From contig CABSKV010000001.1 in assembly GCA_902478425.1 (NCBI GenBank), forward strand, positions 1-55,691: a stretch of DNA of 55,691 bases. Reading direction: 5' to 3'. Within the stretch, counting starts at the first letter, position 1. Every line of letters begins with the position of its first letter. Under the pieces are notes generated by a model. It did not search any database and was not told the origin of the DNA. It saw nothing but the letters and a program-made list of their open reading frames with translations. Below are positions 30,042-37,061 of the stretch, one piece after another. The position numbers and the translations under genes are program-made. The DNA comes from an uncultured Coriobacteriia bacterium. Its GTDB lineage: Bacteria; Actinomycetota; Coriobacteriia; Coriobacteriales; QAMH01.

Positions 30042-30800
30042 ATGGCGTTCTCACTCGACGATCTTGCGGCACACTACGCGCAGCTTCCCGAGGCAGGCGG
30101 CCTCGATAGTCGCTGCGAGATGTTCGTCCCCGGCGGCCTGAACGACCAGACCGTCCTCGACCTGGCATGCCGTCGTGGCCTGGGCGTCTACAAGCTCTCC
30201 GACCACGTGGGTCCGGCCGGCCATGTCATCGGCGTCGATTGGCGCGAGTCCTTCATCGAGCGCGCCCGCGAAGGCGAGGCCCATGCTGTCGAGAAGAACA
30301 AGCTCACCAAAAGCAACATGGAGTTCGTCGTCACCTATCCCGAGATGATCGACCAGATCGGCATCGAGGAGGGTAGCCTCGACTACGTCTACGTCAACAG
30401 CGCCCTCAACCTCTTCTACGATCCGGCGCACGTCATCAAGCTCATCGGCCGCCTGCTCGTGCCGGGCGGCAAGCTCGTGTGCCAGACGGTACTCGCCACG
30501 ACACCGCGCGACAAGCAGGTCATCGCCGAGGCGCGCGCAATCGGAAACGTCGTCCAGGCGGCTCCGAATCGCAAGAACTTCGCGCTCTGGCTGCATAACG
30601 CCGGCATGGACATGCCCACCTACGAGACGCTCGAGGCGCGTCCCATCCAGCCCTGCGACGCCGTGGCCGCAGACGGGCAGGCGCCCGTTGTCGAGACGGA
30701 CGAGGACGCGCGCTTCACGAGCTGCGTCGTGAACGTCGAGAAGCTCGGCGGCTTCGACTACCAGGCCTTCCTGCTCAAGGACATGAGCGATTTTCGCTAG
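30042..30800 (+). CDS. Class I SAM-dependent methyltransferase (first gene of the MoxR/vWA/LRR operon)
   Basis: SD AGGAGG lies 5 nt upstream. Motif I VLDLACRRGLG, post-I VIGVDW, motif II LDYVYVNSAL and motif III LLVPGGKLV are present. It is paralogous to the C-terminal domain of the 34815..37061 product. Confidence 0.85.
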   Translation: MAFSLDDLAAHYAQLPEAGGLDSRCEMFVPGGLNDQTVLDLACRRGLGVYKLSDHVGPAGHVIGVDWRESFIERAREGEAHAVEKNKLTKSNMEFVVTYPEMIDQIGIEEGSLDYVYVNSALNLFYDPAHVIKLIGRLLVPGGKLVCQTVLATTPRDKQVIAEARAIGNVVQAAPNRKNFALWLHNAGMDMPTYETLEARPIQPCDAVAADGQAPVVETDEDARFTSCVVNVEKLGGFDYQAFLLKDMSDFR

Positions 30801-30802
30801 AG

Positions 30803-33088
30803 ATGGGCTGGGGTAGGGAAATGCCGGTTATGACTGGTGGCCTTGACGCCGAAGGCGACGAGGAGTTCTCGAGAATCAAGGAAGTGGCTGTCGTGGCTCT
30901 GAGCGATGGATTGAGAAGCGTCGAGGAAGTCGAGCGCATGCAGGAGATCTTCGCGCGCAACCACGACGAACACGAGCGTCTCGTTCGCGAGGATGCGGCT
31001 GCGTGCTCGGAGGAGCGCGCGCTTATGCTCGATGACGGCACGCTGTGGGAGTACGTGACCGTGCATGACGAGTACGTGCGCATCATCGGCTGCAAGACCG
31101 ACACCGTCACGCTCGAGATTCCCGCCACCATCGAGGACAAGCCGGTGGCCGAGCTAGCCGTCGATGCGTGCTCGTATCTCGAGTCGGTGCGCGAGATCAT
31201 CTGCTCGCCGCAGATCGAGAAGATCGGCAACTGCGCGTTTCGCGCGTGCACGAAGCTCGAACGCCTCGTCTTGCCCCGCAACGTCGAGACCTACGACTCG
31301 TCGTGGGTGCGTGGCTGCCGCAAGCTGTCCGAGCTCACCTTGCCCGGCATGCTCGCGCGCGTCACGTCGAGCATCTTCGACGAGGGACAGCTGGGCACGC
31401 TCGTCATCGGCTTTGCCACCTACGACTTCGCACCGGGCCTCTTTGCCCAGGGCAAGCTCGAGAGCATCCGCATCGATGACGAGAACCCCTACATCACGAC
31501 CGATGGCAAGGCCATCTTCGCGCACGAAGGCACGCATCTGCGCGTGTTGGCGCTGTCTTGCGAGCGCTACGCCGTGCCCGATGGCTGCCAGGTCATCGAG
31601 AAGAAGGCCTTCGCGAATCGCTCCGAGCTCTACGAAGTCGATCTTCCCGACACCATCACCACGATCGAGGACTACGCGTTCTCCTATTCGGGTCTCGAGA
31701 GCTTCACGTCCCCGCGCGACCTGCGCACCATCGGCGAGCGCGCCTTCTTCCGCTGCCGCAAGCTCACCCAGGTCACCCTCGACGAAGGGCTCGTGTCCAT
31801 CGGCGACGACGCGTTCACCGGGACGGGCATCGAGACCTTGCGCGTGCCCGCGACGCTCGAGACGCTGGGCAATAGCATCGCGGCCGACACCAAGCTCAGC
31901 TTCTCCGGAGATGATGCGGGCTTTTCCATCGCCGCAGGCGGCATTCTCGAAATCGACCGCGAGGGCGGCCTGTATCGCAACACGCCCGAGGGCAAGCACT
32001 TCGTGCATCTGCTCGACGACAAGGCGCGTGAGTACACGGTGCAGCCCGGCACGATCGAAATCGAGCCGCACGCCTTCGCGCATCATGCGCACGTCACGAA
32101 GGTCATGCTGCCCGAGGGCTTGCTGCGCATCGGGGGTGCGGCCTTCCGCGATTGCCACGAGCTTGCCATCGCCGACTTTCCCTCGACACTCGAGGAGGTG
32201 GGCGACGAGGCCTTCCTCGACACCTCGCTTTCGCGCGCCTTCATTCCCCGCAACCTTAGGCGCCTTGGCAATACCGCGCTCATCACGCATGGCGCGCACA
32301 ACGGTGACGAGGCCCCCTCCCTCACGAGCATCGGCGTCGAGGAGGGCAACGAGCGCTTCTATTCCGTCCCCGGTCTGCTCATCGAGCGTCACGACGACGG
32401 CTCGCACGTCGTCGTCTACGCCGACGGCACCGAGAGCGTGCGCATCCCCGAGGACGTGACCGTCATCGACCCATACGCCTTCGGCGGAGCACGCCATCTG
32501 CGCGAGCTGTTCCTGAGCGACCGCATCCGTCGCGTCGGCATGCGCGGCTTGAGCCTCGACTGCTTCGTCGAGCACTTCCACATCGACCTCGACGAACCCC
32601 ACGAGGGTCACGCCTGCTTCGACTTCTACTTCCCCGATGCACCGCGTAGCGTGCACGAGATCCAGCTGGCGTTCAACCTGAGCAGCTCGGTCGACCTGGC
32701 ACGCATCTTCAAGCACTACGACAGCGCGATCGTTAACATGCACGAATTCGACAAGCAGGCGAGTATCGCAGGCGACGATTTCGACGTATATGGCCAAGCC
32801 AAACTCGCGATCGAGCGTCTCTCCGATCCCATCCTCATGAGCAGCACCAACAAGATCATGCTCACGCAGGTTCTCACGAAGAACCTCGAGGAGGTATGCG
32901 AGGCGATCGCGCGCCACGACGACCGCTCATTAATTGATGAGCTTATTGAACTGGATGTTCTGAACAAGGATAATCTTCTCGATGTCATCGACCACATCGG
33001 CAAATTGCAGGATGCGGCGATGACCGGGTACTTGCTCGAAATCAAGCGGCGCATGTTCCAGCGCAGCGCCGTGGACTTCGACCTATAG
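30803..33088 (+). CDS. Cytoplasmic BspA-type leucine-rich-repeat (LRR_5) protein with helical C-terminal domain
   Basis: There is no signal peptide or TM segment, and the N-terminus is acidic. Units such as IEKIGNCAFRACTKLERLVLPRNVETY, IEKKAFANRSELYEVDLPDTITTIEDYAFSYSGLESFTSP and IGERAFFRCRKLTQVTLDEGLVSIGDDAF repeat many times. The start is uncertain (ATG 30803, 30821 or 30830). Confidence 0.8.
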   Translation: MGWGREMPVMTGGLDAEGDEEFSRIKEVAVVALSDGLRSVEEVERMQEIFARNHDEHERLVREDAAACSEERALMLDDGTLWEYVTVHDEYVRIIGCKTDTVTLEIPATIEDKPVAELAVDACSYLESVREIICSPQIEKIGNCAFRACTKLERLVLPRNVETYDSSWVRGCRKLSELTLPGMLARVTSSIFDEGQLGTLVIGFATYDFAPGLFAQGKLESIRIDDENPYITTDGKAIFAHEGTHLRVLALSCERYAVPDGCQVIEKKAFANRSELYEVDLPDTITTIEDYAFSYSGLESFTSPRDLRTIGERAFFRCRKLTQVTLDEGLVSIGDDAFTGTGIETLRVPATLETLGNSIAADTKLSFSGDDAGFSIAAGGILEIDREGGLYRNTPEGKHFVHLLDDKAREYTVQPGTIEIEPHAFAHHAHVTKVMLPEGLLRIGGAAFRDCHELAIADFPSTLEEVGDEAFLDTSLSRAFIPRNLRRLGNTALITHGAHNGDEAPSLTSIGVEEGNERFYSVPGLLIERHDDGSHVVVYADGTESVRIPEDVTVIDPYAFGGARHLRELFLSDRIRRVGMRGLSLDCFVEHFHIDLDEPHEGHACFDFYFPDAPRSVHEIQLAFNLSSSVDLARIFKHYDSAIVNMHEFDKQASIAGDDFDVYGQAKLAIERLSDPILMSSTNKIMLTQVLTKNLEEVCEAIARHDDRSLIDELIELDVLNKDNLLDVIDHIGKLQDAAMTGYLLEIKRRMFQRSAVDFDL

Positions 33089-33103: not shown

Positions 33104-34783
33104 GTGGCGCAGATCACCGACGAGAAGACCGAGCGCTTCAACCGTGCCGCCCGCCTCGCAACTGACATCATCGAGGAATGTCGCGTCCAGCTCATGCTGA
33201 AGTTCCGCTTCCTCGACTTGGCGCTGTGGCGCATGGAGCTCGTCCCGGTGCATTCCCGCGCCCGCTACCCCCTTTCGACGGACGGTACGAACATCTACTT
33301 CGAGCCCTATAGCGTCTTGGCGCGCTTCGAGGAGTCCTTCGACGAGGCGGTGCGCGACTACCTGCACCTCATCTTGCACTGCATCTTCCGTCACCCGTAC
33401 AACCGCGACCACCTGGGCAACCGGGAGGCATGGTCGTTGGCGTGCGATGTCATCGTCGAGAGCGTCGCGATGGAGATGTGCGCGACGCGCTTCACGAGCG
33501 AGCAAGACGCCGACCGCGAGCAATACCTCTCGCAGATCAAGCAGACGATCGGCGCGTTCATGCCGGCCAAGCTCTACCATCTGTTCGACCGCATCATGAA
33601 GAACCCCGAGGGGGCCACGTACTTCAATTACTCGAAGAGCAACATCGTCGAGATGCAGGCGCTGTTCGAGCGCGACAACCACGAGTCGTGGCCGGCCTTC
33701 AACGATTCCGAGGGCGAGGAGAAGCCCGGCGACATCGAGGAGATCGGCGAGGAAGACGAAAGCGCCGAGGAGTCCGCGGACACGAACGCCCAGGACCTGC
33801 AGGCGACAAGCGATATGGAGTCGAGCCAGACCGATACGTCCGACCAGAAGGTGGAGGGTAGCGACGACGGCGATGACGAGCAGGCGTCCGAAGACGACGA
33901 GGGCGAAGATGCCAGCTCGAACGCCGATGGGTCGAGCTTGGACACCTCCAACGACGAGCTCGAGGGCTCGAGCAGCGAGGATGATGCCGACGAGCAGGTC
34001 AACGACGAGACCGCCCACGAGGAGAAGGAGTGGGAGGAGATAAGCCGCCAGATCGAGATGAACCTCGAGACCTTCTCCAAAGAATGGGGCGACGAGGCGC
34101 GCGACCTGATCTCGAGTCTCGCCATCGCCAACCGCAAGACCTACGATTACAGCGACTTTCTGCGACGCTTTGCCACGGTGTCCGAGGACATGCGCATCAA
34201 CGACGACGAGTTCGACTACATCTTCTACACCTACGGCATGAAGCTCTACGGCAACATGCCGCTCGTCGAGCCGCTCGAGTACAAGGAGACCAAGCGCGTG
34301 CGTGACTTCGTCATCGCCATCGACACCTCCGAGTCCGTGAGTGGCAACCTGTGCAAGCGCTTCATCGAGCACACCTTCGACATCCTCATGCAGTCCGAGG
34401 AGTTCGGCAGCAAGGTGAACATCCACATCATCCAATGTGATGCGAAGGTGCAGTCCGACACCAAGATCTCGAACCCCGAGCAGCTCAAGGATTACCTCGC
34501 CAACTTCTACGTGCGCGGATTCGGTGGCACCGACTTCAGGCCGGTGTTCGACTACGTCTCCGACTTGCAGGACCGCGGCGAGCTCGAGGACCTGCAGGGG
34601 CTGCTGTACTTCACCGATGGCCTGGGCTACTACCCCGACAAGATGCCGCCGTACGATGTCGCGTTCGTCTTCATCGACAATGGCGAGACGCATCTGCCGA
34701 GCGTGCCGCCGTGGGCCATGCGCGTGGTGATCGACGAGGATGGCATCAACCGATTCAAGAGCGCCGAGCGCGCCCATTCGTGA
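33104..34783 (+). CDS. DUF2201-type protein: zincin-like N-domain (degenerate HExxH), acidic linker and vWA domain with MIDAS
   Basis: GTG start 8 nt after GGGGGAGGG. H88-LIL-H92-x4-H97 occupies the position of the HExxH motif. Residues ~200-312 are D/E/S-rich low complexity. The vWA core reads FVIAIDTSESVSG (DxSxS MIDAS). Confidence 0.8.
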   Translation: MAQITDEKTERFNRAARLATDIIEECRVQLMLKFRFLDLALWRMELVPVHSRARYPLSTDGTNIYFEPYSVLARFEESFDEAVRDYLHLILHCIFRHPYNRDHLGNREAWSLACDVIVESVAMEMCATRFTSEQDADREQYLSQIKQTIGAFMPAKLYHLFDRIMKNPEGATYFNYSKSNIVEMQALFERDNHESWPAFNDSEGEEKPGDIEEIGEEDESAEESADTNAQDLQATSDMESSQTDTSDQKVEGSDDGDDEQASEDDEGEDASSNADGSSLDTSNDELEGSSSEDDADEQVNDETAHEEKEWEEISRQIEMNLETFSKEWGDEARDLISSLAIANRKTYDYSDFLRRFATVSEDMRINDDEFDYIFYTYGMKLYGNMPLVEPLEYKETKRVRDFVIAIDTSESVSGNLCKRFIEHTFDILMQSEEFGSKVNIHIIQCDAKVQSDTKISNPEQLKDYLANFYVRGFGGTDFRPVFDYVSDLQDRGELEDLQGLLYFTDGLGYYPDKMPPYDVAFVFIDNGETHLPSVPPWAMRVVIDEDGINRFKSAERAHS

Positions 34784-34814
34784 TAAGACGGTCTCGAAGG
34801 AAAGGATTCAGGCC

Positions 34815-37061
34815 ATGAACATTGCCGACGCAAAGGAACAGATCAAGGATACCGTCGAGGCGTACCTCCTCAAGGACGAGGCGGGGATGTACAAGATCAA
34901 CCCCGCACGCCAGCGCCCGATCTTTCTCATCGGCGCGCCGGGCATCGGCAAGACCGCCATCATGGAGCAGATCGCCCAGGAGCTGCAAATCGGCATCGTC
35001 TCGTATTCGATGACGCACCACACGCGCCAGAGCGCGCTTGGCCTGCCGCGCATCGTGCATAACGATTTCGAGGGCTTCGAGTACGATTCCTCCGAGTACA
35101 CGATGAGCGAGATCGTGTCCTCGATCTACGATTACATGGGCGAGACGGGACTGCGCGCCGGCATCCTCTTCCTCGACGAGATCAACTGCGTCTCGGAGAC
35201 GTTGTACCCTTCCATGCTCCAGTTCCTGCAGTTCAAGACCTTCGGGCGTCATCGCGTTCCGCATGATTGGATCATCGTCTGCGCGGGCAATCCGCCCGAG
35301 TACAACAAGTCGGTGCACGAGTTCGATATCGTCACGCTCGACCGCCTGCGCGAAATCGAGGTCGAGCCCGAGTACGCCGCATGGAAGCGTTATGCCGCGC
35401 AAAAGGGCATCCACCCAGCTGTCACCACGTTCCTGGAGGCCAAACCCGATTGCTTCTACCTCGTGCAGTCCAAGCCCGGCGGTGGCAAGAGCTTCGTCAC
35501 GGCGCGCGGATGGGAGGATCTGGCCGAGGCCATCGCGTTGTACGAGGAGATGGGCAAGCCGATCAACCGCGACCTCATTGGGCAGTTCTTGCGTGACGAC
35601 GAGATCGCGGATAGCTTCTCGGTGTACTACAACCTCTTCGACAAGTACCGCTCCGATTACCAGATCATGAACATACTATCTGGTGCGGCGGGACTCGACA
35701 TCATTAATCGTGCTCGCGCCGCCGAGTTCGACGAGCGCGTCGCCTTGCTGGGCCTCATGCTCGATGCGGTCGCGAATGCATGTGCGCATGCACTTGAACA
35801 GGAGGAGGTCGTCATCTCGTTGCGCGATATCCTGCGCGACGCGAAGCCGGCTCTGCTCGACGGAGCGTCCATCGACGAGACGGTTGGCATCGTCGCCTCG
35901 ACGCGTGAGCAGGCACTTGCGCGCAAGGTCGCGTCCGGCACGGCAAAGCCCAGCTACGAGCGCAAGGAAAGCCTCGTCATCGTCAAGCTCAAGCACCTCA
36001 TGGAGCAGTGCAGGCTCGCGGGCACCGTGGTCGGCGAGGAGGCGTTCGCGACCATCAGCGATGCGTATCGCGAGGAGGTCAACGCGATTGACCCGCTCGT
36101 GAAGACCGCCGACAGCCAGATGACCAACGCGATTAAGTTCATCGAGGAGGCCTGGGGCAACGGCCGCGAGATGCTCGTCACGGTGGCCGAGCTCACGACG
36201 CGCCAGACGACCACGCAGTTCATCGCGCATTACGGCAACGAGGCCTACTACGCGCATAATGACGAGCTGCAGGTCGACGAGCATAGACGCAGCCTGTCCG
36301 AGCGCGTGCGCACGCTCGACATCAACGCCGAGGAGGCCATGCAACCGGGCGAGACTGCCGCGGCGGGTGGCCAGACGATAGCCGAGTACTACGGCGGCAA
36401 GCAGTTCGAGTACGGGTTTGCATCCATGAGCAAGATGACCCTGCCCGATGCAGCACAGCTCAAGGGCAAGACGGTGCTCGACGTGGCATGCAGGCGCGGC
36501 AAGGGCTGCTTCAAGTTTAGCGCGAAGGTGGGCGGTACGGGCCGCGTCATCGGCGTGGATTGGTCGCCGAGCTACATCGCCGAGGCGATCGAGGATTCCG
36601 AGCGCGCCTGGCGCAAGAACAACCTCAAGGCTAACAACATGGACTTCAAGGTTGCCTATCCCGAAGACCTCATGGAGGCTGGCATCGGCGAGGGCACGGT
36701 CGACGTCGTCTACATCAACAACGTGATGACGCTGCTCTACGACCAGGGCAAGGCGCTCGAGGAGTTCTACCGCGTGCTCAAGCCGGGCGGACTGCTCATC
36801 TGCGAGACGATCGTCTCGGATGTCACGCGCGACGCGGCCGTGGTCGAGAAGGCGCGCGGCATCGGCAACAGCATCCAGGCGGCGCTTCCCGAAGACGAGC
36901 TGCGCGCTCAGATGAAGGCGGCGGGCTTTAAGGACCTGGAGGTCATCGATTCGTATCCGGTCGATGCCGACCGTGGCTTCACGTCGAGCACGGTCGTCGA
37001 GACCGTCCCCTCGACCGAGACCGTCCGCTTCGAGGCAGTGGCGTTCAACGCACGTAAGTAG
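34815..37061 (+). CDS. MoxR/AAA_5-class AAA+ ATPase fused to a C-terminal class I SAM methyltransferase domain
   Basis: ATG 34815 follows AAGGAAAGGA; the ORF-track start at 34740 overlaps the upstream gene. Walker A is GAPGIGKT, Walker B is ILFLDEIN, and IIVCAGNPPEYN is the sensor-1 region. A helical middle is followed from about nt 36465 by VLDVACRRGKG...VIGVDW...LKPGGLLI. Confidence 0.8.
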   Translation: MNIADAKEQIKDTVEAYLLKDEAGMYKINPARQRPIFLIGAPGIGKTAIMEQIAQELQIGIVSYSMTHHTRQSALGLPRIVHNDFEGFEYDSSEYTMSEIVSSIYDYMGETGLRAGILFLDEINCVSETLYPSMLQFLQFKTFGRHRVPHDWIIVCAGNPPEYNKSVHEFDIVTLDRLREIEVEPEYAAWKRYAAQKGIHPAVTTFLEAKPDCFYLVQSKPGGGKSFVTARGWEDLAEAIALYEEMGKPINRDLIGQFLRDDEIADSFSVYYNLFDKYRSDYQIMNILSGAAGLDIINRARAAEFDERVALLGLMLDAVANACAHALEQEEVVISLRDILRDAKPALLDGASIDETVGIVASTREQALARKVASGTAKPSYERKESLVIVKLKHLMEQCRLAGTVVGEEAFATISDAYREEVNAIDPLVKTADSQMTNAIKFIEEAWGNGREMLVTVAELTTRQTTTQFIAHYGNEAYYAHNDELQVDEHRRSLSERVRTLDINAEEAMQPGETAAAGGQTIAEYYGGKQFEYGFASMSKMTLPDAAQLKGKTVLDVACRRGKGCFKFSAKVGGTGRVIGVDWSPSYIAEAIEDSERAWRKNNLKANNMDFKVAYPEDLMEAGIGEGTVDVVYINNVMTLLYDQGKALEEFYRVLKPGGLLICETIVSDVTRDAAVVEKARGIGNSIQAALPEDELRAQMKAAGFKDLEVIDSYPVDADRGFTSSTVVETVPSTETVRFEAVAFNARK

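What the first reader, a model, noticed from the sequence alone, without database searches (positions are those of the whole stretch)
33104..34783. vWA partner protein has a degenerate zincin motif (HLILH rather than HExxH) and a chelatase-like acidic linker
Seen: where DUF2201_N proteins normally carry an HExxH-type zinc motif (from memory of the family), this protein reads Y-L-H88-L-I-L-H92-C-I-F-R-H97 (nt 33365-33394). The histidines are kept but the catalytic Glu is Leu. Residues ~200-312 (nt ~33701-34039) are almost pure D/E/S/G low complexity (EGEEKPGDIEEIGEEDESAEESADTNAQD...SSSEDDADEQVNDE). The vWA domain retains an intact MIDAS DxSxS (DTSES, nt 34322-34336).

Established knowledge: BchD and CobT, the vWA partners of the chelatase AAA+ motors, also have an acidic linker preceding the vWA/MIDAS domain. 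There it is thought to contact the ATPase ring.

Inference: this protein is more likely a metal-binding adaptor or pseudo-peptidase bridging the AAA+ ring and a client (perhaps the LRR protein) than an active protease.
Basis: partly seen in the sequence, partly recalled or inferred. Interest (0 to 1): 0.6.

Follow-up and report, generated by a model that had tools for sequence, protein, structure and literature searches.

The report
Glu-less zincin–vWA adaptor of AAA+ module
This gene encodes a two-domain adaptor: a protease-like domain that has lost its key catalytic glutamate, joined to a metal-dependent binding (vWA) domain; it sits in a widespread, unstudied three-gene ATPase module of gut bacteria, and the "broken" motif is a conserved signature of a whole subfamily, not a one-off defect.

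Summary
ORF 33104-34783 (559 aa) reads H88-L-I-L-H92-C-I-F-R-H97. It has a 113-aa linker with 42% D/E and a complete MIDAS (D407-x-S409-x-S411, T476, D505).

The loss is clade-wide. Among 148 50%-identity cluster representatives, only 3 have Glu at position 89. H88, H92, H97 and D115 are kept in 93-99%.

The clade has also gained E119 (138/148; canonical members have Asn). It keeps an invariant D191-x-H193-x-x-W196. The site is therefore maintained, not decaying.

Glu loss recurs in at least four other DUF2201_N lineages.

The gene always sits beside a ~500-aa AAA_5 ATPase (50/50 full loci), here fused to a methyltransferase. A cytoplasmic BspA-type LRR protein is adjacent in 48/50 loci; the other two carry an ankyrin or a DUF6273 protein.

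The acidic linker is real but varies widely (8-346 aa). Its likeness to BchD/CobT is analogy only.

Best reading (about 50%): a non-proteolytic, metal- and peptide-binding adaptor of an AAA+ remodelling machine. A re-wired active site is not excluded (about 23%).

The parts
33104..34783 (+). Whole ORF (559 aa, GTG start with SD): zincin-like N-domain, acidic disordered linker, helical region, conserved motif and vWA/MIDAS domain
33104..33700 (+). N-terminal DUF2201_N (zincin-like) domain, aa 1-199
   Evidence: Pfam 25.2 bits against a cut-off of 23.2. hhalign to canonical members 93.5%, E 2.2e-7. AF2 pLDDT 86. Best folds are minigluzincins, Spartan and phage 'metallopeptidase domain' proteins.
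33365..33394 (+). H88-L-I-L-H92-C93-I-F-R-H97: counterpart of HExxHxxxxH with the catalytic Glu replaced by Leu
   Evidence: In 148 representatives: H88 144, E at position 89 only 3, H92 147, C93 132, H97 138.
33446..33460 (+). D115-V-I-V-E119 on the helix after the motif. D115 is family-wide; E119 is clade-specific (canonical members have Asn).
   Evidence: D115 146/148, E119 138/148
33674..33691 (+). D191-N-H193-E-S-W196: invariant D-x-H-x-x-W at the end of the N-domain
   Evidence: D191 146/148, H193 148/148, W196 148/148
33701..34039 (+). Acidic low-complexity linker (aa 200-312), predicted disordered
34178..34303 (+). Most conserved stretch of the protein (aa 359-400, ..DDEFDYIFYTYG..LYGNMPLVEPLEYKE..), predicted with low confidence; candidate partner-docking motif
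   Evidence: 65% mean identity to the query across representatives, against 27% for the N-domain and 48% for vWA
34304..34771 (+). vWA-like domain (DUF2201, PF09967)
   Evidence: 48.1 bits. Foldseek probability 1.0 to VWF A2, integrin I and MDN1 MIDAS domains.
34322..34336 (+). MIDAS D407-T-S409-E-S411. It is completed by T476 (34529-34531) and D505 (34616-34618).
   Evidence: all invariant in 71 homologues
34740..37061 (+). Partner AAA_5-type AAA+ ATPase (about 500 aa) fused to an ArsM/UbiE-like SAM methyltransferase. The true start is probably near 34815.
30803..33088 (+). BspA-type LRR_5 protein with no signal peptide; the conserved third component of the module
30042..30800 (+). Free SAM methyltransferase, 38% identical to the methyltransferase domain fused to the ATPase; first gene of the operon

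Best explanation
The protein is the adaptor subunit of a cytoplasmic three-part machine. The three parts are an AAA_5/MoxR-like ATPase, this zincin-like/vWA protein, and a repeat protein (LRR, or rarely ankyrin).

Shown here:
- The N-domain is a homologue of the DUF2201_N zincin-like domain. The general-base Glu of HExxH is replaced by a hydrophobic or small residue throughout a large clade.
- H88, H92, H97 and D115 are retained.
- The C-terminal vWA domain has a complete MIDAS.
- The two domains are joined by a disordered acidic tether of variable length.
- The ATPase and repeat-protein genes are near-obligate neighbours.

Inferred:
- The N-domain still binds a metal (probably Zn) and uses the old substrate cleft to hold, not cut, a peptide segment.
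- The MIDAS-bound Mg2+ captures a carboxylate of a partner or client, as in CbbO, NorD or midasin.
- The AAA+ ring supplies ATP-driven remodelling, and the LRR or ankyrin protein provides target recognition.
- The acidic linker acts as a flexible spacer.
For: Homology and column assignment:
- Pfam places the N-domain in DUF2201_N.
- The MAFFT alignment and hhalign at 93.5%, E 2.2e-7 put L89 on the catalytic Glu. They also put H88/H92/H97/D115 on the invariant H/H/H/D of canonical members.

Clade-wide loss with retained ligands:
- 120 close homologues all lack Glu.
- Across 148 representatives, 3 have Glu at position 89, while H88 is kept in 144, H92 in 147, H97 in 138 and D115 in 146.
- Position 89 is chemically unconstrained (T, M, L, V, S, I, A, C), as expected for a position with no catalytic duty.

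Recurrent loss:
- Glu loss recurs elsewhere in the family without any compensating E119. The lineages are H[TS]xxHC...D...N, HHxxH, HQxxH and HLALH.
- The tree needs at least 7 state changes. This is the usual pattern of pseudo-enzyme evolution.

MIDAS and fold:
- The MIDAS is intact and invariant and the vWA fold is supported.

Context:
- An AAA gene is adjacent in 50/50 loci with at least 4 kb on both sides. An LRR gene is adjacent in 48/50, and ankyrin or DUF6273 proteins in the other two.

Precedent:
- Inactive peptidase domains fused to vWA proteins of MoxR systems have been read as peptide-binding or dominant-negative modules (PMC7159879).
Against: The site looks elaborated rather than merely retained:
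- E119 is gained specifically in this clade (138/148).
- D191 and H193 are invariant (146 and 148 of 148).
- C93 is present in 132/148.
This could mean a re-wired catalytic centre or a different metal chemistry.

Limits of the evidence:
- No coordinates were available, so ligand geometry was not inspected.
- No metal, binding or activity data exist.
- The PDB fold matches of the N-domain to zincins are below significance (best E 0.14).
- The MoxR assignment of the ATPase rests on a Pfam AAA_5 hit only. The bpMoxR model is below its cut-off, and a PDB profile search matched only the P-loop region.
Confidence: 0.5

Rival explanations
1. The N-domain is an active metallohydrolase with a re-wired active site. 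Three His residues bind Zn. The clade-specific E119, or the invariant D191/H193 pair, takes over the general-base or transition-state role of the lost Glu. The module would then be an AAA+-coupled protease acting in trans, with the LRR protein selecting or being the substrate.
For: - E119 replaces a canonical Asn exactly in the clade that lost E89: 135 of 148 representatives are 'no E89 plus E119', while canonical members have Asn.
- D191-x-H193-x-x-W196 is more conserved than the HxxxH itself. From my own knowledge, this recalls the Asp226/His231 pair that stabilises the transition state in thermolysin.
- The whole set of polar residues is under strong purifying selection across 35-99% identity.
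Against: - I know of no zincin that works without the motif Glu (own knowledge).
- Three clade members have both E89 and E119, so E119 is not simply a replacement.
- Other Glu-less DUF2201_N lineages keep Asn at position 119.
- The D-x-H-x-x-W motif also occurs in HExxH-bearing relatives (L116, L117, L134), so it is ancestral and not compensatory.
Confidence: 0.23
2. The protein is a metallochaperone or cofactor-insertion adaptor, in the manner of NorQ/NorD, CoxD/CoxE or the class I chelatases. The His/Cys/Asp-rich site would hold a metal ion that the AAA+ motor helps deliver to a client.
For: - Several characterised MoxR/vWA pairs mature metal centres (own knowledge; CoxE in PMC4240915, listed; chelatases in PMC7689651).
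- The conserved H88, H92, C93, H97, C114, D115, E119, D191 and H193 give more potential ligands than one catalytic Zn needs.
Against: - No metalloenzyme or CobN/BchH-like gene is conserved next to the module.
- The conserved third gene is a protein-binding repeat protein: LRR, ankyrin or DUF6273.
- C93 and C114 are not universal (132 and 113 of 148).
Confidence: 0.12
3. The N-domain is a purely structural relic with no metal and no ligand. Only the vWA domain and the conserved 359-400 motif matter.
For: The N-domain evolves fastest of the folded parts: 27% mean identity to the query across representatives, against 48% for the vWA domain and 65% for the motif.
Against: Near-invariance of eight polar residues clustered on the two 'active-site' helices and at the end of the domain is hard to explain without a functional site.
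Confidence: 0.08

Closest known systems
DUF2201_N/DUF2201 proteins (PF13203 + PF09967; 'predicted metal-dependent peptidase' plus vWA-like), including the jumbo-phage MoxR-vWA pair whose vWA protein has an N-terminal metallopeptidase domain (Iyer et al. 2021, PMC7824862)
   Same: Same two-domain architecture and the same adjacent AAA+ partner. Shared HxxxHxxxxH...D core. The best BFVD fold matches are phage 'metallopeptidase domain' and 'VWA-like' proteins.
   Different: Canonical and phage members carry HExxH and Asn at the E119 column and are assumed to be active. This clade lacks the Glu, has HC/E119, a long acidic linker and an LRR partner.
MoxR-vWA ternary conflict systems with catalytically inactive peptidase domains fused to the vWA protein (Kaur et al. 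2020, PMC7159879)
   Same: AAA+ ATPase plus vWA protein plus a third component. The vWA protein carries an inactive peptidase domain that is read as a peptide-binding or dominant-negative module.
   Different: There the dead peptidases are caspase- or trypsin-like and the third component is VMAP or a beta-propeller with effector domains. Here it is a zincin relic with an LRR or ankyrin protein. No effector is recognisable, the bpMoxR model is below its cut-off, and there is no PADLOC match.
BchD/ChlD and CobT, the vWA subunits of class I chelatases
   Same: C-terminal integrin-I/vWA domain with MIDAS, preceded by a flexible low-complexity linker. They work with an AAA+ motor (PMC7689651).
   Different: Their N-domain is AAA-like, not zincin-like. 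The BchD linker is described as proline-rich, whereas this one has 1 Pro in 113 residues. No CobN/BchH-type subunit lies in the operon. The linker length here is not conserved (8-346 aa).
CbbQ/CbbO, NorQ/NorD and midasin MIDAS-client systems
   Same: An AAA_5/MoxR-type motor with a vWA adaptor whose MIDAS is thought to grip a client carboxylate (own knowledge).
   Different: Those adaptors have no zincin-like domain and serve defined clients (Rubisco, NO reductase, pre-ribosome). No client is known here.
FtsH (AAA+ fused to an M41 HExxH zincin)
   Same: It couples an AAA+ motor to a zincin-fold domain.
   Different: FtsH has an intact HExxH, is a single polypeptide and is membrane-bound. Here the Glu is absent and the two functions are on separate cytoplasmic proteins.

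Membership tests
DUF2201_N (PF13203, zincin-like 'putative metallopeptidase domain') | Pfam HMM score at or above the gathering cut-off | tested here: met
   25.2 bits against 23.2 when aa 1-201 are scanned alone. It is not listed for the full-length protein and was missed by the whole-genome family scan, so membership is borderline and divergent.
DUF2201_N (PF13203) | Profile-level homology to canonical members, with the motif columns aligned | tested here: met
   hhalign A2 against A4: 93.5%, E 2.2e-7. H88/H92/H97/D115 fall on the invariant H/H/H/D.
DUF2201_N (PF13203) | Catalytic Glu of HExxH | tested here: not met
   L89 occupies the Glu column. Glu is present in 3/148 clade representatives, against about 32 of 48 Pfam-detected proteins from 652 genomes.
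DUF2201_N (PF13203) | Zincin-like fold | tested here: inconclusive
   AF2 N-domain model has pLDDT 86. The best PDB hits are the minigluzincins selecase and jannalysin (probability 0.98 but E 0.14, TM 0.5-0.63) and Spartan. BFVD hits to phage metallopeptidase-domain proteins reach E 2e-4.
vWA / DUF2201 (PF09967) | HMM score at or above the cut-off, and vWA fold | tested here: met
   48.1 bits against 26.4. Foldseek probability 1.0 to VWF A2, integrin I and MDN1 MIDAS domains.
vWA / DUF2201 (PF09967) | Complete MIDAS (DxSxS + T + D) | tested here: met
   D407, S409, S411, T476 and D505 are all invariant in 71 homologues.
Class I chelatase D/T subunit (BchD/CobT) | N-terminal AAA-like domain | tested here: not met
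   The N-domain is DUF2201_N; no AAA match was found.
Class I chelatase D/T subunit (BchD/CobT) | CobN/BchH-type catalytic partner | tested here: not met
   The operon genes are a methyltransferase, an LRR protein and an AAA-methyltransferase fusion. The conserved neighbours in 80 loci are AAA and LRR only. The rest of the genome was not searched.
MoxR-vWA ternary conflict systems (Kaur et al. 2020) | MoxR-clade ATPase | tested here: inconclusive
   AAA_5 scores 33.5 bits against 22. bpMoxR scores 23.0 against 27, below its cut-off. The PDB profile search matches only the P-loop region.
MoxR-vWA ternary conflict systems (Kaur et al. 2020) | VMAP or beta-propeller third component and effector domains | tested here: not met
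   The third gene is LRR_5, ankyrin or DUF6273. There is no PADLOC system match.
Active zincin metallopeptidases | HExxH (or HxxEH) with a general-base Glu | tested here: not met
   The motif is H-L-I-L-H. Activity itself is not testable with these tools.

The most novel reading that the evidence does not exclude
The Glu-less clade is not a dead peptidase. On this reading the zincin scaffold has been rebuilt into a new metal centre (H88/H92/H97 plus C93, D115, E119 and D191/H193). Its chemistry, or its metal-dependent peptide capture, would be gated by the AAA+ motor. The whole LRR/ankyrin-vWA-AAA+ module would be an undescribed cytoplasmic sensing or conflict system of gut Clostridia and Coriobacteriia, with the variable repeat proteins acting as sensors.
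Probability: 0.15. Interest if true: 0.75.

Novelty: new variant of a known kind. Interest (0 to 1): 0.45.

Why it matters
AAA+ (MoxR-like)/vWA pairs are common, yet a client or mechanism is known for only a few. This clade is large: 811 50%-identity clusters at E<=1e-30, and more than 593 species-level genomes.

It ties such a pair to a conserved Glu-less zincin domain and to cytoplasmic LRR or ankyrin proteins in abundant gut bacteria. I found no experimental literature: four papers mention DUF2201, all in passing.

The sharp signature (E89 lost, E119 gained, D191/H193 invariant) turns 'pseudo-peptidase or re-wired enzyme?' into a question that can be settled with a few point mutants. It also gives a better sequence definition for a subfamily that the Pfam model largely misses.

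Tried and rejected
- **PDB by sequence:** the single protein and the profile of 71 homologues gave no real match, only low-complexity hits to the acidic linker.
- **NCBIfam:** nothing for this protein.
- **PADLOC:** no defence-system match, only a spurious JetC hit on the linker.
- **Whole-genome PF13203 scan:** it missed the window's own gene, so Pfam-based tallies under-count the Glu-less clade.
- **Full-length fold search:** it returned only vWA hits, so a separate N-domain model was needed.
- **Classifying the ATPase with a PDB profile search:** only P-loop-region hits to Cdc48, FtsH and RuvB.
- **Idea that the acidic linker is tied to the methyltransferase fusion:** methyltransferase-bearing loci do have longer, more acidic linkers (median 105 aa and 38% D/E, against 77 aa and 28%). 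However, they form essentially one clade, and acidic linkers also occur without the methyltransferase (L037, L056, L062). The link is phylogenetically confounded and I dropped it.
- **Tandem repeats in the linker DNA:** none.
- **C93 as an essential nucleophile:** rejected, because 16 of 148 representatives lack it and a sister group has Asn there.
- **Phage homologues:** the only full-length hits are unannotated 4-15 kb 'Bacteriophage sp.' faecal contigs of doubtful assignment. Bona fide phages match only in the vWA domain.
- **His/Cys geometry in the model:** not inspected, because the tools return no coordinates.
Full report
**Observation**

ORF 33104-34783 (+) is the longest frame on its strand, and a GGGGGAGGG ribosome-binding site sits 6 nt before its GTG start. 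Its 559-aa product reads ...R84-D-Y-L-H88-L-I-L-H92-C-I-F-R-H97-P..., with H88 to H97 at nt 33365-33394, exactly as reported.

Residues 200-312 contain 26 Glu, 22 Asp and 17 Ser but only 3 Lys. That is 42% D/E, against 17% in the rest of the protein. The DNA has no tandem repeat, and AlphaFold gives pLDDT below 50 for residues 203-300.

The vWA part carries D407-T-S409-E-S411 (nt 34322-34336), plus T476 in GGTDF and D505 in FTDG. All five are invariant in 71 homologues.

Pfam finds DUF2201 (vWA-like) at 48.1 bits. It finds DUF2201_N at 25.2 bits, against a cut-off of 23.2, only when the N-terminal 201 residues are scanned alone.

**Is the family consensus HExxH?**

Yes. I collected PF13203 matches from 301 Actinomycetota and 351 Bacillota genomes.
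- The best-scoring members read GVWVHEVSHLLRDHH, FVLAHEMLHAALRHG or ALYHEICHLLRDH, that is HExxHxxxxH. One helix later comes N-x-A-x-D-x-x-x-N.
- In an alignment of 14 such sequences, H, E, H, H(+5), N, A and D are invariant.
- A profile-profile comparison of this protein's N-domain alignment with that canonical alignment gives 93.5% probability, E 2.2e-7. It places H88/L89/H92/H97 on H/E/H/H, D115 on the invariant Asp, and E119 on the canonical Asn.

**How often is the Glu lost?**

All 120 close homologues (51-99% identity, mostly Eggerthellaceae MAGs) read H[LM]xxHCxFRH.

An exhaustive phmmer search found 4,695 50%-identity clusters at E<=1e-3 and 811 at E<=1e-30. I aligned the best 150 without pre-filtering, and 148 of them have the N-domain. 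The counts in these 148 are:

| Position | Residue kept | Count |
|---|---|---|
| 88 | H | 144 |
| 89 | E | 3 (otherwise T 28, M 26, L 25, V 17, S 16, I 12, A 9, C 7) |
| 92 | H | 147 |
| 93 | C | 132 |
| 97 | H | 138 |
| 115 | D | 146 |
| 119 | E | 138 |

A further D191-x-H193-x-x-W196 motif at the end of the domain is present in 146, 148 and 148 of 148.

Among the Pfam-detected proteins of the two phylum samples, about 32 of 48 have HExxH. The rest fall into several separate Glu-less groups:
- HHxxH (L001/L002);
- HQxxH (L123/L125);
- H[TS]xxHC with Asn still at the E119 column (L114/115/118);
- HLALH (L016);
- the present clade.

A quick maximum-likelihood tree of 88 N-domains puts the present clade on one side of a branch (SH-aLRT 85) and needs at least 7 changes of the Glu state overall. 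The Pfam model under-detects this clade: it missed the window's own gene in a genome scan. The true Glu-less share is therefore higher than these tallies suggest.

**What this means for the motif**

The motif is not a decayed site. Eight polar residues on the motif helix (79-95), on the next helix (107-126) and at the end of the domain are held nearly constant over 35-99% identity. Meanwhile the former Glu position drifts freely among small and hydrophobic residues.

Two features argue for real loss of proteolysis:
- Glu is lost repeatedly in the family, including in a lineage that does not gain E119.
- Position 89 shows no chemical constraint.

Two features keep a re-wired site possible:
- E119 is gained specifically in this clade: 135 of 148 representatives combine 'no E89' with 'E119'.
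- D191 and H193 are invariant.

Against simple compensation, three clade members carry both E89 and E119. In addition, the D-x-H-x-x-W motif also occurs in HExxH-bearing relatives such as L116, L117 and L134.

**Fold**

- The full-length AF2 model (pLDDT 71) has a confident N-domain, a disordered linker and a vWA domain. Foldseek matches that vWA domain to VWF A2, integrin I, MDN1-MIDAS and Rpn10 domains at probability 1.0.
- An N-domain-only model (pLDDT 86, pTM 0.83) finds the minigluzincins selecase and jannalysin and the Spartan protease as best PDB hits. These are below significance (E 0.14 and worse; TM 0.5-0.63 on the target).
- In BFVD its best hits are phage 'metallopeptidase domain-containing' and 'VWA-like domain-containing' proteins (E 2e-4 to 1e-2), followed by M48, SprT-like and IrrE domains.

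The zincin-like fold is thus supported mainly through homology to DUF2201_N and only weakly by direct structure comparison. The tools return no coordinates, so the geometry of the His, Cys, Asp and Glu residues could not be inspected.

**Linker**

An acidic, disordered linker is a general feature, but its length and composition vary.
- The close clade has 92-127 aa with a median of 40% D/E.
- Across 68 of the 80 genome loci where the linker could be delimited, it ranges from 35 to 170 aa with 19-46% D/E, always exceeding K+R.
- Across the 150 representatives it ranges from 8 to 346 aa.

The comparison with BchD/CobT is analogy only. Those proteins have an AAA-like N-domain, and the linker before the BchD integrin-I domain is described as proline-rich (PMC7689651). 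This linker has one Pro in 113 residues.

The link between linker acidity and the methyltransferase fusion is confounded by phylogeny.

**Context**

The operon consists of four genes:
- a SAM methyltransferase (30042-30800);
- a BspA-type LRR_5 protein without a signal peptide (30803-33088);
- this gene;
- an AAA_5 ATPase fused to an ArsM/UbiE-like methyltransferase (34740-37061).

The best 80 come from Eggerthellaceae and other Coriobacteriia and from many Clostridia, including Lachnospiraceae, Oscillospiraceae, Ruminococcus and Mogibacterium.
- In the 50 loci with at least 4 kb on both sides, a ~500-aa homologue of the ATPase is adjacent in 50 and an LRR_5 gene in 48. Several loci have two to four LRR genes.
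- The two exceptions carry an ankyrin-repeat protein (L068; also L090) or a DUF6273/Zn-ribbon protein (L069) in the same position.
- The methyltransferase fusion is confined to one Eggerthellaceae group.
- Within Coriobacteriia the gene is patchy: 23 of 201 genomes and 13 of 93 genera, with up to three paralogues per genome.

No PADLOC defence model matches, no solved structure exists by sequence, and only four papers mention DUF2201, all in passing.

**Mechanism**

I commit to the following reading, at about 50%. The protein is a non-proteolytic adaptor of an AAA+ remodelling machine.
- The zincin-derived domain keeps a metal site and a peptide-binding cleft but cannot activate water in the canonical way.
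- The MIDAS grips a carboxylate of a partner or client.
- The ATPase supplies work.
- The LRR or ankyrin protein supplies recognition.
- The acidic linker is a flexible spacer.

The domain homology, the clade-wide Glu loss with retained ligands, the intact MIDAS and the gene linkage are shown. Metal binding, peptide holding, the MIDAS target and the role of the LRR protein are inferred.

There is a direct published precedent. Kaur et al. found that peptidase domains fused to the vWA proteins of MoxR ternary systems are mostly catalytically inactive. They proposed that these act as peptide-binding or dominant-negative modules (PMC7159879). Iyer et al. described jumbo-phage MoxR-vWA pairs with an N-terminal metallopeptidase on the vWA protein (PMC7824862).

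The rivals are:
- a re-wired active hydrolase using E119 or D191/H193 (about 23%);
- a metallochaperone in the NorQD/CoxDE/chelatase style (about 12%), weakened by the absence of any conserved metalloenzyme neighbour;
- a purely structural relic (about 8%), weakened by the conserved polar cluster.

**Verdict**

'Pseudo-peptidase adaptor' is the best reading, but the site is a maintained and modified subfamily signature rather than a degenerate motif, and the chelatase analogy is superficial.

This is a new variant of a known kind: a MoxR-like AAA+/vWA pair with a DUF2201-type zincin domain. It is of moderate interest because the module is widespread in gut bacteria, unstudied and now sharply defined.

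Noticed in passing
window 34178-34303 (aa 359-400): This is the most conserved stretch of the whole protein (..DDEFDYIFYTYG..LYGNMPLVEPLEYKE..). It has 65% mean identity to the query across 150 representatives, against 27% for the N-domain. AlphaFold predicts it with low confidence (pLDDT 41-49) just upstream of the vWA fold. It is likely a docking motif that folds on a partner.
   Followed up: partly
L068:10036-11682, L090:4543-6183, L069:10061-11773: In the few loci without an LRR gene, the same position after the ATPase holds an ankyrin-repeat protein (L068, L090) or a DUF6273/Zn-ribbon protein (L069). The third component is therefore an exchangeable protein-binding module.
   Followed up: partly
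L084:1514-6952: This is a 1,812-aa LRR_5 protein of the module that also carries DUF4132. From my own recollection, which I did not check, that domain is found next to the E. coli yehL (MoxR)/yehP (vWA) genes. This hints at a link to the YehL-type MoxR neighbourhood.
   Followed up: no
L056, L040, L078, L098, L081 (loci): Several loci carry two to four tandem, diverged LRR_5 genes around the vWA/AAA pair. This is consistent with diversification of the repeat component.
   Followed up: no
window 34740-37061 and 30042-30800: The methyltransferase fused to the ATPase and the free methyltransferase that opens the operon are 38% identical. Most relatives have only the fused copy. Linkers are longer and more acidic in methyltransferase-bearing loci, but this is confounded by phylogeny.
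   Followed up: partly
The genome search G761, G693, G757, G827; pairs L045/L061, L055/L062, L047/L063, L060/L078: Some Eggerthellaceae genomes hold two or three paralogous modules. One is a methyltransferase-fused type (about 50% identity to the query). The other is a methyltransferase-less type (about 40%). A third group has HxVLHNVFLH, with Asn in place of C93.
   Followed up: partly
phage records MT839739.1, MT837836.1 and others: Short, unannotated 'Bacteriophage sp.' contigs from human faeces encode near full-length homologues (36-39% identity). These may be bacterial fragments misfiled as phage, or the module may be mobile.
   Followed up: no
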